Of a stretch of 64,000 nucleotides of DNA, positions 42,001 through 48,000 are shown piece by piece. This DNA is from a candidate division WOR-3 bacterium. Lineage in GTDB: Bacteria > Hydrothermota > Tepidihabitantia > Tepidihabitantales > Tepidihabitantaceae. Position 1 is the first letter of the stretch. Every line of letters begins with the position of its first letter. The stretch is taken from assembly GCA_965649205.1 (NCBI GenBank), contig CBFGJV010000007.1, forward strand, positions 1 to 64,000, written 5' to 3'. A program made the position numbers.

Positions 42001-45000
42001 GACAGCCGGAAAGTGGTACCTGAAATGGGAAACGACTCTCAAGGCAGCGATGCTCGGCAGGTAAGTGCGGGTAAAGGAACGCAGCCCTTGCCTCCGTCTC
42101 GGCCCGGGGAAAACGGTAAGCGGCTACGGGCAGAGGGTCTGGTAAAAACCTACGGAGGCAGAAAGGTGGTGAACGAGGTTAGCCTGGAGCTATCTCAAGG
42201 AGAAGTGGTAGGTCTATTGGGCCCCAACGGTGCGGGAAAGACTACTACATTTCATATGATTACAGGCTTTGTCCGACCCGATCAGGGGCGAATCTGGTTA
42301 GATGGCACTGATATGACGGGAATGCCGGTGTATCGGCGTGCGCGGTTGGGACTGGGGTATTTGTCCCAGGAGCCCTCTATTTTTCGCAAGCTTTCCGTGC
42401 TGGACAATGTGAGGGCAATTCTGGAAATGGTGGGCTATGAGCGAGCAAGGATTGACGAGCGGGCAAGGGAGTTATTGGCCCGTTTTAATGTGTTGCACCT
42501 GGAGAAACAGCAGGGTGCCACTCTTTCTGGAGGAGAAAGGCGGCGGGCAGAGCTGGCTCGGGCTTTGGCTAGCGCACCTCACTTTTTGCTGCTTGATGAG
42601 CCATTCACAGGGGTTGACCCCATAGTGCGGGCGGAAATTCAGGACATAGTGCGTGGGTTGAAAGAAGACGGACTGGGAATTCTCATTACCGATCATAATG
42701 TGCGCGAGACGCTGGAGATAACTGATCGAGCTTACATTATGTACGATGCGCAGGTGCTGCTTTCTGGTACCTCGCATGACCTGGTGAACGACCCGAAGGC
42801 AAGACAGGTTTATCTGGGAGAAAGGTTCCGAATATGAAACAAGAGCTGGGAATGGGGTTGGACCAGAGGCAAGTACTGGGTCAGTACCTAACGCCGCAGC
42901 TGGTTCTTAATTTGAAGTTGCTGCAGATGCCGACACTGGAGTTGGAAGCGGTGATTAGGCAGGAGTTGGAGGAAAATCCGGCGTTGGAAGAAGCAGATGA
43001 CGAGGATACAGAAGTTACGGCATGGGAAAGAGAAGAGGAGCCGGTTTTGCAGGTGGCAACCGATACGACAGAGGAATCTGAACAATCGCTACTGCCGGGA
43101 GCAAACGAGGGGTCTCTGGAGCTGCGACCCGGTGAAGTAGACACTCCGGAAGAGCTGCCAGCTGATGCCTATTCATTGGAAGACCTGATGCCTGATGACG
43201 GCGATTTGCCGAGTTTGCCAAGTTCTGCAGGAGGAGAGAATGCTGCTGAGGTCTGGGAGGTGGTGTCCGAGCCGGAGCCGGACCTGCGTGAGGCGTTGCT
43301 GCCGGTACTGCAGACTTTGTTGTCTGCAGATGATGCAGCGGTTGCAGAGAATATTTTTGACTACCTGAACGAGGACGGATTCTTAACAGTAGAAGAGGGG
43401 GAACTGGCACAGATTCTGCAGGTTGACCCTGCCCGCCTGCAGCGAATACTACAGATAATACGGCAGATTGAACCGGGCGGAATCGGTTGCCGCAATCTGC
43501 AACACGCATTTCAGGTGCAGTTGGAGCTTTTGGGTTTTGAGCCGACCAGCTTGGAAAACCAGTTAGTGACTGCGTACTGGGAATTGCTTTTGGCAAAGAA
43601 GATAGACAGAATTGTCCAGTGCTCGGGCGCAAGCGAGGAGCAGGTAAGAAAAGCGCTGGCAAAGATACTGACTCTGGAGACGAGACCGGCCAGAAGGTTT
43701 TCCGCGGTGCGGACTGAGTATGTAATGCCTGATTTCAGCGTGGAATTACGTGAAGGCCGGCCGGTGGTGGAGGCAAACGACAGTTCCCTACCTCGGCTGA
43801 AACTGTCTCGGCAATACGCGGAGATACTGCGTAATCCCAAAGCCTTTTCCAAAGAACAGGTTCAGTTTGCCCGCGAAAAGTTCAACCGCGCGCTCATGTT
43901 CCTGCGGGGAATAGAGTCACGGCGGCGTACGCTCAGGCGACTTATGGAACTCGTGGTCGAGGAACAAAGGGACTTCTTTCTGAAAGGACCGGAGTACCTG
44001 AAACCGGCTACATTGAAAGAGGCGGCTGAACGACTGCAGGTGCACCCTTCTACTGTTTCCCGGGCCACTGCGGGTAAATATGTGGAGACCTGCTATGGCA
44101 TTTTCCCGCTTAAGCATTTTTTCCGGGCCGGGACAGGCGACAGATCGCGTATGAGTATCAGGGAGCGCATAAGGCAGATGGTGGACAATGAGGATAAATC
44201 TGCTCCCCTGAGTGACGACGATATGGTTGCATTGCTGCAAAAGGAAGGTATCAAGGTGGCGCGGCGGACCGTGGCTAAGTATAGACAGGAACTGGGTATT
44301 CCGGGAAGAAATCAAAGGTTGAGAGTTTGATCAGAGAAGGGCAGGAGCGGTGCACGTAGTAGTCGGTACTGCGGGCCACATTGACCACGGGAAGAGCGCC
44401 TTGGTACGGGCGCTTACTGGTACTGACCCGGACCGTCTCAAGGAAGAGAAAGAAAGGGGGATGACCACAGATTTGGGTTTTGCTTTCCTGGGAGACAACA
44501 TAACCATTATAGATGTGCCCGGGCACGAGAAATTCGTCCGTCATATGCTGGCTGGTGCTAGCACCATTGACCTTGTGTTGCTGGTGGTGGCTGCGGATGA
44601 CGGAGTAATGCCTCAGACCAGAGAACATTTTGAGATATGCAAGCTTATGGGAATACGCAAGGGATTGGTGGTAATAAACAAGGCAGACCTGGTGGATGCA
44701 GAAATGCTGGAGCTGGTAAGGCAAGAAATAGCTGCGCTGGCGCAGGGGTCGTTTCTGGAGGGTGCGCCTGTTTTGGTGGTTTCAGCTCTCACTGGTCAGG
44801 GAGTGCCAGAACTCAGGGAGGCTATAGTAGAGATGGCCGGCAGGGTAGAACCCAAGCCGGACAGAGGTGTTTTCCGTATGCCGATAGACCGCTGTTTTTC
44901 TTTGCGGGGTTTTGGTACAGTGGTGGCGGGTACAATTCTTTCTGGTCAAGTACGGGTGGGAGAGCGACTGGAACTTCTTCCTGCTCAGATGGAAGTGCGG

Positions 45001-48000
45001 GTGCGGGGAATACAGAAACACAACCGGCCAGCAGATTCTGCCGGTCTGGGAGAAAGAGCAGCGCTGAACCTGCAGGGCGTGGAGCGGGAGACTGTGACGC
45101 GGGGCTGGGTTCTAGCCACCCCAGGCTATTACCAGCCTATGACCAGGTTCAATGCCTGGCTGTATCTATTGAGACAGGACACACGACCTCTGCGGAATCT
45201 TACGAGGTTGAAGCTGCATATCGGTACGGCAGAAAAGATGTGCCGGATTGTGCTTTTGGACAAGAAGGAACTTCTGCCCGGGCAGGAAGCGTACGTGCAA
45301 TGCCGGGTAGAAGAACCGGTGGTATGTGACTGGAATGACCATTTTGTCATCCGTACGTTTGCGCCTCAGCAGACGATAGGCGGCGGGGTAGTTCTAGAGA
45401 CGAATTCGGATAAGGAAAAAAGGTTTGACGATGCGGTCATTCAGCGACTCCGGGCGTTGCGTTCAGGAGAAGCGGGTAGTGTGCTGGAACAGTATCTGAT
45501 AAAAGCGGGACCAGAACCCAAAACTATGTTTCAGGCATGCCGGGACCTGGCCCTGGCTGAGGTGGAGGCGACAAAGATGCTGGAGGTGCTGGTGCGAACC
45601 GGCAGGGTGCGTCGGTTTCAGTGGGAAGCAAAGGAATGGTTAATACATGAACAGTCTTTTGCCCAGGCAGTGGCTGCAATTGAGTCTTTTCTGGCGGATT
45701 TTCACCGGCAGAATCCTTTTCGCCTGGGATTGAGGCGGCCCGAGTTGCGGGTAAAGGCGGGGTTGCCGATTGCGCTTTATGAGGCGGCACTGGCACATTT
45801 GGTGAGCACAGGCCGCATCGCGGTTGAGGCAGAGCGAATAAGGTTTGCAGAACACAGGCTGCAACTGAGTCCAATCGAGCAGAAACACTTTGATCGACTG
45901 AGCAATACTTTTCGAGAGGCGGGTCTGCAGGCACCTTCTCTGGCAGAAGAACTGGCGATGCTGGAGAAGAGAGTGGCAGAAAGAGTGCGGGCTGCGTTGC
46001 TGGAAACAGGCACTCTTGTAGACTTGGGTGAGTCGGTGGTGCTGCATCGCGACACAATACGGGCGGCAGAGGACAAAATACGGCGTCTGTTTTCCCGCAA
46101 GCCGGAGCTGACTGCTTCGGAAATCAGGCAGGAGCTGGGCACGACTCGCAAATATCTGATTCCTCTGCTGAACTACTTTGACTCCCGGGGTATAACGCAA
46201 AGAAAAGGCGAGGTAAGGATTTTAAAGCAGAAAGGAACTACTGACCTGTGACTTGTCTGCAGTTACAAGGATCGAGTCTATTACTGGCGCCAAAGAACCG
46301 GCGGCAAATAACCGATAAGGAGTCTAATGGGTAGGAAAGGAATACTGGCCACGGTAAGTTGTGCAGGTTGAGCGTCCAAGCTTAGTAAGGCGCAGTTGGC
46401 GCTCGTACTTGACAAACTGAGAAGACACGAGGACCCCAGACTGCTTGTGGGTATTAATACTGCGGACGACGCCGGGGTTTTCTTGTTGCGACCTGATCTG
46501 GCATTGGTGCAGACTGTGGATTTGCTCACGCCTATGGTGGAGGACCCCTATGTCTTTGGCCGGATTGCGGCTACTAATTCTCTTTCAGACGTTTATGCCA
46601 TGGCCGGCACGCCGGTGACAGTTTTGAACATAGCCGGTTTTCCGGCGCCCGCGGACAAATCCTGGCTTGCCGCTATATTGCAAGGCGGTGAGGACGCAGT
46701 GGCTGAGGCTGGGGCGGTGGTATGTGGCGGTCATACTTTCAACGAAAAGGAAATAAAGTTTGGGCTGGCCGTGACCGGTACCATTGATCCGGGGCGGATT
46801 GTAACTAATGCCGGCGCCAAGCCCGGAGACGTTCTGGTTCTGACCAAGCCTTTGGGAACAGGGATATTTGCACAAGTGATGATGAACGAAGATAAGGTTG
46901 ATGAACGACTTTATCAGGCGGCAGTTCAATCGATGATGACCTTAAATCGGGCAGGGTCAGAGGCTATGGTTCAACTGGGGGCGAATGCAGCAACGGATAT
47001 TACCGGTTTTGGTTTGCTTGGACACGCCCAGGAGATGGCTCAGGCCAGTAGAGTGAGTATAAGGCTGGAGTTCAGCAGGATTCCCCTTCTGCCTGGGGTA
47101 CGGGAGCTGGCGCGGGCCGGTATAGTGGATGCGGGGGTGGCTATGAATATGTCCAGTTTCGAGCAGTATGTGCACTGGGCCGAGTCCATTGTTGAATCTG
47201 ACCGCAATTTGCTTTGGGAGTCAGAAAGTTCCGGTGGTCTTCTAGTGAGCCTTCCTCAGGAAAGTGCAGAACGGTATCTGGAAGCGGTGGGTGAGAGGGG
47301 GGTACAGGCAGCGGTAATCGGCGAAGTGCGGACAGGACCGCCTGGCGAAGTGGAAGTAAGGAGTTAGTTATGTTCTGGCAGGCGCTAAAGACACAGTTTT
47401 TCAGTCCGGAGAAACTCGTTGATTATGCAGTCAGGGCCATTCAGATAGTTCTGGTCTTGGTAGGAGCCTGGTTGGTTTATCTGGTGGTTAGTAGAATTCT
47501 GCGTCGGGCGCTAAGTCGGGCACAATTGCACGAGCGACGGGCAAGAACGCTTCTGTCTCTTATTCAGAGTCTGCTTGGTTACGGTATTCTATTTGTGGCT
47601 ATCGTACTGGTATTGCGCATTCTGGGAGTAGATTATACGGCGATCCTGGCCGGAGCGGGTGTGGTGGGTCTGGCGGTAGGTTTTGGCGCGCAGACGCTGG
47701 TGCGAGATTTTATATCAGGCTTTTTTCTTCTTTTTGAAGATTTGATTAGCGTAGGGGACTTTGTCACGGTAGGCGACATTTCCGGCACGGTGGAAAGAGT
47801 GGGATTAAGGATAACTCAACTGCGGGGTTTTGACGGTACCCTGCATGTGGTGCCCAACGGAGAGTTGACCAAGTTTGGTAATGCTAATCGCGGTTTCTGC
47901 CGGGCTCTGGTAACGGTGGATATGGCATACGAGCAAGATACGCAGAAAGGGCTTTCTCTGGCCGCGGAGGCGGCAAGGCGGTGGTATGAGGCCAATAGAG

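What a model noticed while it worked through the whole genome (the two positions that open the first line are those of the whole stretch)
44350..47367. A selenoproteome that is almost wholly exported: Sec machinery kept for T9SS cargo
The genome has tRNA-Sec, SelA, SelB and SelD, yet scans for in-frame TGA with coding sequence on both sides find only seven selenoprotein genes: SelD itself and six proteins with signal peptides, five of them with type IX secretion sorting domains; the usual cytoplasmic selenoenzymes (HdrA, FlpD/VhuD, NiFeSe hydrogenase, formate-dehydrogenase-like, Prx) are Cys or Sec-free forms. I read this as an organism that pays for the whole Sec pathway chiefly to put selenium on its cell surface. 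New would be a lineage in which selenocysteine use has moved from central redox metabolism to secreted proteins, which predicts a selenium-dependent extracellular chemistry.
Evidence so far: rna.tsv: tRNA-Sec C14:18506-18600; g00331 SelA, g00648 SelB (C7:44350), g00649 SelD (Sec 9 codons upstream of the called start, SCAG-U-ASK, call 15). Screens: calls 13-18 (from gene calls, both directions), call 43, and call 74 (270 TGA with >=40 open codons before, >=15 after and a GU-loop hairpin; only known ones are in frame with genes on both sides). Exported Sec genes: C6:77629, C13:1372, C4:64583, C22:18852, C16:18813, C8:78265. Full-length calls without TGA for HdrA g00050, FlpD g00049/g00919/g01670, g01745; g00593 ends ...DPCFAC.... 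Calls 29,35,37,41,44: the TGAs are conserved across the order.
(Added by a program. Inside this text positions count along the whole contig: contig position 1 is position 1 of the stretch shown here. "Call 12" and the like, gene names such as g00115 and contig names such as C1 are that model's own, and its searches are not shown. The text may have been shortened before it was handed on; [...] marks where a part breaks off. The agent that wrote the report below was given it as the finding of a first reader that could run no searches.)

Follow-up and report, generated by a model that had tools for sequence, protein, structure and literature searches.

The report
Selenoproteins concentrated in the cell envelope
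This uncultured bacterium puts the rare amino acid selenocysteine almost only into proteins sent to its membrane and surface, including several families missing from the current catalogue, although many close relatives still keep one ordinary selenium enzyme inside the cell.

Summary
The Sec machinery and all seven listed genes are real, in a WOR-3 genome. The count is not: an eighth selenoprotein was missed, a 45-residue CD1871A-like membrane protein ending U-L-S-C-M-G-L-V (TGA copy in 41 of 43 other family genomes; covarying SECIS). It shares an operon with the Sec lipoprotein, a TlpA, a DUF6029 barrel and a 4Fe-4S membrane protein, a likely trans-envelope thiol/selenol relay. All seven non-SelD selenoproteins look extracytoplasmic, but only four pass the T9SS sorting-domain cut-off. 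SprA, PorV and PorU-like genes exist; GldM and GldN were not found. This genome's HdrA, MvhD, hydrogenase, Prx and Trx are Cys forms. The lineage claim is overstated: 19 of 43 family genomes, including the same-genus relative, carry a cytoplasmic Sec-HdrA-MvhD fusion, and one contig ends where a relative continues into a second Sec-SelD. Verdict: envelope-dominated, not wholly exported; a new variant of Sec use with several families absent from the 119-family catalogue. Function is inferred, not shown.

The parts
44350..46251 (+). selB, Sec-specific elongation factor (633 aa)
   Evidence: ORF; TIGR00475 over cut-off; SelB winged-helix domains
46327..47367 (+). selD, selenophosphate synthetase, 346 aa when the TGA is read as Sec; the only cytoplasmic selenoprotein found in this assembly
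   Evidence: TIGR00476 348.8 bits; the best match carries one TGA in nearly all genomes of the order
46369..46371 (+). in-frame TGA (Sec15 of SelD, SCAG-U-ASK)
   Evidence: sequence; aligned U-U with relative G036
46389..46403 (+). SECIS-like hairpin, 5-bp stem with AGTTG loop 22 nt after the TGA
   Evidence: same stem and loop in G036
33517..34161 (-). peroxiredoxin in Cys form (FTPVCTTE); control showing a family that is Sec elsewhere but Cys here
   Evidence: own gene call and motif scan

Best explanation
A WOR-3 bacterium with a standard SelABCD pathway whose recognisable selenoproteins, apart from SelD, all work in the cell envelope as thiol/selenol redox centres. SHOWN by sequence: eight Sec genes with SECIS hairpins and TGA/TGA or TGA/Cys conservation. 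(a) An operon on C8 (minus strand): Omp28-like lipoprotein with UxxC (79011-78265), TlpA/ResA-like protein with CxxC (78256-77708), DUF6029 outer-membrane protein with a C-terminal CxxxxC (77646-76183), 45-aa CD1871A-like membrane protein with UxxC (76181-76045), NapH/MauN-like membrane protein with two 4Fe-4S motifs (to 74747). (b) Five proteins with T9SS-type or T9SS-like tails: two with a CBM-like jelly-roll domain bearing G-U-G-G-C in the loop before its last strand (C6, C13), a ResA-like redoxin (UxxC, C16), an FG-GAP repeat protein (U-C, C22), and a protein of no known family (C-U-x-x-x-C, C4). INFERRED: the C8 operon is an electron relay across the envelope (Fe-S membrane protein, then the Sec micro-protein, TlpA, barrel, Sec lipoprotein) that keeps surface selenol/thiol centres reduced, doing the job that DsbD/CcdA-ResA does for periplasmic thiols. 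The secreted selenoproteins are its clients or co-workers, most likely disulfide reductases/isomerases that serve the large secreted proteome (111 sorting-domain matches, 16 C25 cysteine peptidases) or open disulfides in protein substrates. This genome uses a Cys HdrA plus separate MvhD where about half of its family uses a Sec-HdrA-MvhD fusion, so it is one end of a family-wide range.
For: Machinery and TGAs. Eighth gene; I-U-L-S-C-M-G-L-V in 30 of 30 loci; SECIS 97.8% paired, 13 cells with changes on both sides against 3.4 in shuffles, 0 of 500 shuffles as high. Operon order kept in 12 of 13 fetched loci (the 13th is cut short), lipoprotein UxxC in 12 of 12 that reach it; domains. Jelly-roll: TGA at the same site with a hairpin in 25 of 25 loci; model pLDDT 95.9, CBM-like beta-sandwich matches; full-length Cys forms exist. 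Export machine: SprA, PorV beside a PorU-like C25 gene, 16 C25, 111 TIGR04183 matches. No other use for selenophosphate found. Relative G036 (75% scanned): all eight further accepted Sec candidates other than SelD and the micro-protein start with a signal-like segment. Complex prediction of the micro-protein (first 37 residues) with the Fe-S membrane protein: weak support, score 0.58 against best control 0.00, runs agree in at least 98% of contacts, partner pLDDT at least 78; at 0.60 or under the mark was reached by 18 of 157 solved complexes and by both mismatches that passed. HdrA types nearly exclude each other: 19 Sec-type, 22 Cys-type, 2 with both, 5 with neither, of 44 family genomes (sets read).
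Against: No activity, localisation, expression or Se incorporation is shown. GldM and GldN were not found (the controls were silent too, so absence is not shown), so export by a canonical T9SS is unproven. The genome has a separate CcdA/DsbD_TM gene (C11:14786) that could feed the redoxins without the C8 operon. Many jelly-roll paralogues have no Cys next to Sec, so a simple UxxC redox cycle does not cover the family. The only full-length database homologue of the C4 protein has Trp, not Cys, at the Sec site. The bin is incomplete at relevant places: C27 ends at residue 109 of a gene that in G036 is followed by Se/S-carrier, TusA/YedF and a second Sec-SelD, none of which is in this assembly; 44 called genes touch one of the 96 contig ends. 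My pairwise screen recovered only 5 of the 8 genes, and the TGA-rich family counts are not independent (paralogues, kin).
Confidence: 0.6

Rival explanations
1. One reading: the whole lineage keeps the Sec pathway only for T9SS cargo, having moved Sec out of central metabolism.
For: FlpD/MvhD has no stop in 150 of 150 listed matches across the order (48 unlisted); no Sec-FdhA indicated; jelly-roll Sec family in 107 of 272 phylum genomes, up to 9 copies per genome; no Sec-HdrA match in the 22 genomes of the four other families at the cut-off used.
Against: Sec-HdrA-MvhD in 19 of 43 other family genomes including the same genus; two Sec genes without a sorting domain; a second SelD with TGA in several relatives.
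Confidence: 0.12
2. The envelope proteins mainly capture, store or deliver selenium (or bind a soft metal) rather than serve as general disulfide reductases; the relay reduces or traps selenium compounds at the surface and feeds SelD.
For: In 22 of 26 family genomes with a second SelD, an Omp28-like gene lies within 3.5 kb, and the one such locus read in full also holds a Cys CD1871A copy, a SAM methyltransferase, a corrinoid protein, a URO-D-like methyltransferase and a RACo activator, like the Sdm system that mobilises dimethylselenide in selenium-starved Methanococcus (PMC11097638, passages). Lone Sec or C-U loops on a binding-module fold fit ligand capture.
Against: One Sec per protein is poor storage; three of the families have thioredoxin-type UxxC motifs; the copies beside the second SelD have no TGA in the matched stretch, which fits a selenium-free back-up of a relay needed for something else equally well; G036 has its second SelD without the Omp28 genes.
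Confidence: 0.2
3. The pattern in this genome is an artefact of an incomplete bin and of screens that favour long exported genes; cytoplasmic selenoproteins are simply missing from the assembly.
For: A gap at the end of C27 where a second Sec-SelD is expected; same-genus G047 has Sec-HdrA; one short Sec gene was missed by the first screens.
Against: At the site syntenic with G047's Sec-hdrA the assembly runs on without a gap into another operon, and the neighbouring module has no orthologue here; the Cys-type HdrA that usually replaces the Sec-type is present; the HdrA cut by the C11 edge is an orthologue of a G036 protein that lacks the Sec site altogether; screens for C-terminal, N-terminal and short genes found no further candidate that held up.
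Confidence: 0.15
4. The TGAs are stops, Trp codons or pseudogene lesions.
For: Public databases cut these genes at the TGA (lengths of about 180-198 aa, 37 aa); one C4 homologue has Trp at the site.
Against: TGA is the commonest stop here (801 of 1,900 gene calls) and tRNA-Trp reads only TGG; TGA sits at Cys-homologous positions, is kept at 30-60% protein identity and is followed by a covarying hairpin.
Confidence: 0.03

Closest known systems
Bacterial SelA/SelB/SelC/SelD pathway with in-frame SECIS (E. coli fdhF type)
   Same: All four components, Sec-SelD, hairpin just downstream of each UGA with a G-led apical loop.
   Different: The usual sustaining enzyme, Sec-FdhA, which the review calls the most widespread and often the sole bacterial selenoprotein (PMC13188914 section 7), is not indicated in this order.
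Known extracytoplasmic bacterial selenoproteins: SaoB/SaoX/SaoC/SaoP, ExtKL cytochrome, FCYXU TonB-dependent receptor, UGC-type TlpA, Prx-like/redoxin UxxC, DUF3179
   Same: Sec in exported or membrane proteins is not new in itself (PMC13188914 Table 1; bioRxiv 2022.07.06.499078 passages). The C16 protein is a redoxin UxxC of a listed kind.
   Different: None is described with a T9SS tail, and they are described as members of mixed selenoproteomes; CD1871A-like, Omp28-like, FG-GAP, CBM-like and C4-type families are not in the 119-entry table as I read it.
CD1871A family CXXC protein (NF040920) and its neighbouring 4Fe-4S membrane protein
   Same: One membrane helix, C-terminal I-C-x-x-C-x-G motif, match over 37 of 38 model positions, E 7e-6.
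   Different: First Cys is Sec; score 25.8 is below the cut-off of 32; operon adds DUF6029 and an Omp28-like Sec lipoprotein.
HBP35 of Porphyromonas gingivalis (T9SS cargo with thioredoxin activity)
   Same: A surface-exposed T9SS cargo that is a thiol oxidoreductase (PMC4674972 passage).
   Different: Cys, not Sec; no sequence match to solved structures at E<0.001 for the Omp28-like proteins tested, so kinship is a functional analogy only.
DsbD/CcdA-ResA/TlpA trans-membrane reductant delivery
   Same: Membrane redox protein plus periplasmic thioredoxin-fold partner (established knowledge; TlpA/ResA match).
   Different: The membrane step would be an Fe-S protein with a Sec micro-subunit, extended by an outer-membrane barrel and a Sec lipoprotein; a separate CcdA exists.
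Sec-HdrA (CxxU)
   Same: The relatives' HdrA-MvhD fusion has Sec at DCxxU with a hairpin, the motif listed for HdrA in the review table.
   Different: Absent from this assembly, which has the Cys paralogue.

Membership tests
Bacterial selenoprotein genes | SelA, SelB, SelD and tRNA-Sec in the genome | tested here: met
Bacterial selenoprotein genes | In-frame TGA conserved, or aligned with Cys, in homologues | tested here: met
   for C4 only TGA/TGA pairs, the one full-length homologue has Trp
Bacterial selenoprotein genes | SECIS hairpin directly after the TGA | tested here: met
   8 of 8 pass a rule passed by 7% of TGAs; covariation counted for the CD1871A-like gene only; conserved hairpin in 25 of 25 jelly-roll loci
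Bacterial selenoprotein genes | Selenium actually incorporated | not testable with these tools
   needs 75Se or mass spectrometry
T9SS type A cargo | C-terminal domain over the TIGR04183 cut-off | tested here: inconclusive
   met for C6, C13, C4, C22; not met for C16 (FlgD_ig 23.4 of 27); absent from the two C8 genes
T9SS type A cargo | N-terminal signal peptide | tested here: inconclusive
   seen by eye; short and atypical in C22; no predictor available
Type IX secretion system | SprA/Sov translocon, PorV shuttle, PorU-type C25 peptidase | tested here: met
   SprA_N 67.7 bits, PorV 37 bits, both over cut-off; PorV directly behind a 1,346-aa C25 gene
Type IX secretion system | PorL/M motor and PorK/N ring | tested here: inconclusive
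   GldM and GldN found in 0 of 5 genomes, controls silent; PorK and PorL not searched
CD1871A family (NF040920) | Score over the curated cut-off | tested here: not met
   25.8 against 32 bits; filed as CD1871A-like only
Omp28 (PF11551) | Score over the curated cut-off | tested here: not met
   22.4 against 34.9 for the C8 lipoprotein; paralogues in G049 reach 34.9 and 60.4
Carbohydrate-binding modules (CBM4/16/22/61-like) | Jelly-roll beta-sandwich fold | tested here: met
   TM about 0.45-0.6, identity 10-20%; no Pfam CBM match
Carbohydrate-binding modules (CBM4/16/22/61-like) | Binds a glycan | not testable with these tools
   fold only
Wholly exported selenoproteome as a lineage trait | No cytoplasmic selenoenzyme other than SelD in relatives | tested here: not met
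   Sec-HdrA-MvhD in 19 of 43 other family genomes

The most novel reading that the evidence does not exclude
WOR-3 bacteria run a selenium-based electron wire from cytoplasmic Fe-S clusters to the cell surface (Fe-S membrane protein, Sec micro-protein, TlpA, DUF6029 barrel, Sec lipoprotein) that recharges a set of secreted selenoproteins, among them a greatly expanded CBM-like family with a Sec loop. The wire matters enough that many species keep an all-Cys back-up copy in a selenium-starvation operon with a second SelD and a corrinoid methyl-selenide scavenging system. In species such as this one it is the sole reason, besides SelD, for keeping the Sec code.
Probability: 0.25. Interest if true: 0.85.

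Novelty: new variant of a known kind. Interest (0 to 1): 0.62.

Why it matters
The review read here says bacterial selenoproteins take part predominantly in anaerobic metabolic pathways and names FdhA or SelD as what sustains the trait. Here is a genome, and to a large degree a phylum, in which most Sec sits in envelope and secreted proteins. It adds at least four candidate families (CD1871A-like, Omp28-like, FG-GAP U-C, CBM-like jelly-roll, plus the C4 type) that annotation cuts in two, one of them in 107 of 272 phylum genomes, and gives a concrete five-gene operon with which to test why selenium would be preferred outside the cytoplasm. It also shows T9SS outer-membrane parts in WOR-3 without a recognisable Bacteroidota motor.

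Tried and rejected
Candidates rejected: C26:-911 (UPAC; lies upstream of an rfbA start); 26 residual TGA-hairpin sites, of which 20 are gene ends or lie inside or beside genes called in another frame and 6 are intergenic without a conserved partner in the scanned part of G036; two G036 sites where the TGA aligns with non-Cys residues. 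First pairwise BLAST passes were swamped by shadow frames and rRNA. G036 could be read for only 2.44 of 3.26 Mb, and its Sec-HdrA lay in the unread part, so the scan of G036 alone gave a falsely clean picture. Single-sequence fold of the C4 domain failed (pLDDT 38) and was not searched. Omp28-like proteins against solved structures: only thioredoxin-like hits at E 0.27-0.89. No organism names; the WOR-3 label comes from names of homologues. Motifs used were recalled; my first HdrA motif (CSxxCC) was not the Sec site and was replaced by DCxxC/U. Paper searches without a report of this pattern. The HdrA hits with a terminal stop inside the match in 650-670-aa frames were not counted as Sec.

Full report
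OBSERVATION. The window is contig C7 of a 2.15-Mb bin in 48 contigs, 98% complete. Names given to homologues place it in candidate division WOR-3. SelB (44350-46251) and SelD (46327-47367, TGA at 46369) are as described; tRNA-Sec is at C14:18506-18600 and SelA at C3:87909. No SelU or YqeB was found in 5 of 5 genomes tested, with working controls, so selenophosphate has no other known use here. The six exported genes each hold one in-frame TGA with a hairpin 16-23 nt downstream: C6:78193 and C13:2856(-) (G-U-G-G-C), C4:64850 (C-U-G-D-N-C), C22:19131 (G-U-C, FG-GAP repeats), C16:18999 (U-P-S-C, AhpC-TSA/ResA-like) and C8:78876(-) (U-G-Y-C, lipoprotein, weak Omp28 match).

INDEPENDENT SCREENS. 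I scored all 59,183 TGA triplets for coding potential and hairpins and compared read-through peptides with 2.44 of the 3.26 Mb of the single-contig relative G036. These gave one more gene: C8:76047-76181(-), 45 residues, a basic N-terminus, one hydrophobic helix and the ending I-U-L-S-C-M-G-L-V, with only seven codons after the TGA. It matches in 43 of 43 other family genomes, with a TGA copy in 41; 30 of 30 loci cut out show the same motif, and the hairpin, which uses the stop codon as part of its stem, has 13 cells changed on both sides against 3.4 in shuffles and falls apart when the pairing is slid. It resembles NF040920 (CD1871A family) below cut-off. Public protein sets hold it cut at 37 residues (nearly all of the 120 listed). 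No other candidate survived, but the pairwise screen saw only 5 of the 8 genes, so a short, unconserved Sec gene could still be missed.

CYTOPLASMIC ENZYMES. Four whole HdrA genes have Cys at the DCxxC site and no TGA inside any aligned stretch; a fifth is cut by the start of C11, and its G036 orthologue (72%) lacks the site. Three MvhD/FlpD, MvhA, Prx and Trx are Cys. Across the order FlpD has no stop in 150 of 150 listed matches and the molybdopterin-type proteins lie in unbroken frames. It is nearly exclusive with the Cys-type HdrA that this genome has (2 genomes with both), and the syntenic site here is occupied without a gap, so its absence is probably real. A real gap exists elsewhere: C27 ends inside a gene that in G036 leads on to a Se/S carrier, TusA/YedF and a second SelD with Sec; these have no match in this assembly.

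HOW WIDE. The jelly-roll domain of C6 and C13 is in 58 of 66 genomes of the order, up to nine copies each, with exactly one TGA in 144 of 150 listed matches, at the same site and with the same hairpin in 25 of 25 loci, and in 107 of 272 phylum genomes. It folds with pLDDT 95.9 into a beta-sandwich like CBM4/16/22/61, with Sec in the loop between the last two strands. C4: 26 of 66 genomes, all 18 full-length matches with one TGA. FG-GAP: 34 of 66, the 48 best rows all with one TGA. Omp28-like: 47 of 66, TGA and stop-free copies. The redoxin is Sec only within the family, with stop-free orthologues in three genomes. G036 adds further exported Sec types that this genome lacks.

EXPORT. SprA, PorV (behind a PorU-like C25 gene), 16 C25 peptidases and 111 TIGR04183 matches among about 1,900 genes are present. 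GldM and GldN were not detected, with silent controls. Four Sec proteins pass the sorting-domain cut-off, one has a weak tail, two have none. A review passage lists FCB phyla with possible T9SSs and does not name WOR-3 there (PMC11285876, passages); no paper held both T9SS and WOR-3.

MECHANISM. The two Sec genes without a tail flank a conserved operon: Sec lipoprotein, TlpA, DUF6029, Sec micro-protein, NapH/MauN-like 4Fe-4S membrane protein, then lipA; the order holds in 12 of 13 loci. Every member carries a dithiol, selenol-thiol or Fe-S motif, and they occupy successive layers of the envelope, which is the anatomy of a reductant relay. By the positive-inside rule the micro-protein's UxxC faces outwards, near two invariant Cys in the first loop of the Fe-S protein; that placement is inference. 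The complex prediction gives weak support (0.58 against 0.00). I think it most likely (about 0.6) that the relay keeps surface selenol and thiol centres reduced and that the secreted selenoproteins are disulfide reductases or isomerases for the large secreted proteome or for protein substrates; HBP35 is the Cys precedent for a T9SS cargo with thioredoxin activity (PMC4674972, passage). The direction of electron flow, the substrates and the location are not shown. A selenium-handling role is the main rival: 22 of 26 family genomes with a second SelD have an Omp28-like gene beside it, and in G049 that operon holds Cys copies of the relay genes with a corrinoid methyltransferase set like the one that mobilises dimethylselenide in selenium-starved Methanococcus (PMC11097638, passages).

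WHAT IS KNOWN. I read sections 7 (parts 1 and 2 of 3, with the whole table), 9 and 10 of the 2026 review PMC13188914; its text has no occurrence of Omp28, CD1871A, T9SS, FG-GAP, periplasm or secret-. Exported selenoproteins as such are known (Sao system, bioRxiv 2022.07.06.499078, passages; redoxins, ExtKL and a TonB-dependent receptor in the table). NCBIfam release 20 has no Sec-specific model over cut-off for any of the seven. Searches that found no report of this pattern: (listings only); the library lacks most subscription papers, and I read no supplements, where deep-learning Sec screens might list some of these genes.

VERDICT. Real and unusual, but less absolute than reported: eight genes, not seven; envelope rather than purely T9SS; and a family in which about half the genomes keep a classic cytoplasmic Sec-HdrA. 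New variant of a known kind; interest 0.62.

Noticed in passing
L230 (G049:C2:434500-444000); coordinates: A second SelD sits beside Omp28-like genes in 22 of 26 family genomes; in G049 the operon is SAM methyltransferase, Cys CD1871A-like, two Cys Omp28-like genes, SelD (Cys), corrinoid protein, URO-D-like methyltransferase, RACo. It looks like a selenium-starvation or methyl-selenide scavenging locus with a selenium-free back-up of the relay.
   Followed up: partly
G000 C27:16743-22615 and C3:4947-9141: Parts of that locus are in this genome (EamA transporter, methyltransferase, ABC transporter, ferredoxin-thioredoxin reductase-like gene, dehydratase-like gene cut by the contig end; corrinoid cluster on C3); the second SelD, YedF and Se/S carrier seen in G036 may lie in the gap.
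   Followed up: partly
L225, L226 (G047:C24, G036): Cytoplasmic HdrA-MvhD fusion with Sec at DCxxU, nearly mutually exclusive with a Cys HdrA plus separate MvhD across the family.
   Followed up: yes
G000 C16:47776-53277 and C26:4979-10222: T9SS outer-membrane parts (SprA, PorU-like plus PorV) in WOR-3 with no GldM or GldN match; the energy source for export is open.
   Followed up: partly
L016 (G036 about 117572), L056 and L133 (567496, 2108605), L092 (1294329): Further exported Sec types in G036 that this genome lacks: a repeat protein with Y-C-U, two beta-propeller/redoxin fusions with W-U-P-L-C, and an Omp28-like protein with a T9SS-like tail and G-U-G-T-C, the last often just downstream of the relay operon in relatives.
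   Followed up: partly
L148:1477-1524 (C8:76070 onwards): The micro-protein's SECIS uses the gene's own stop codon and the first base after it as the 3' strand of the stem; the third base of the Gly codon covaries with that base.
   Followed up: yes
   Followed up: no
G000 C13:354-1301, C22:22676-23044, C3:89-691: Small related ORFs ending ...QVFNIGAPSP / ...LFGIQDPV / ...QVFNIGPVAP recur next to secreted-protein genes; family not examined.
   Followed up: no
G000 C43: Repeats and gene fragments that look like a CRISPR-Cas locus on a small contig.
   Followed up: no
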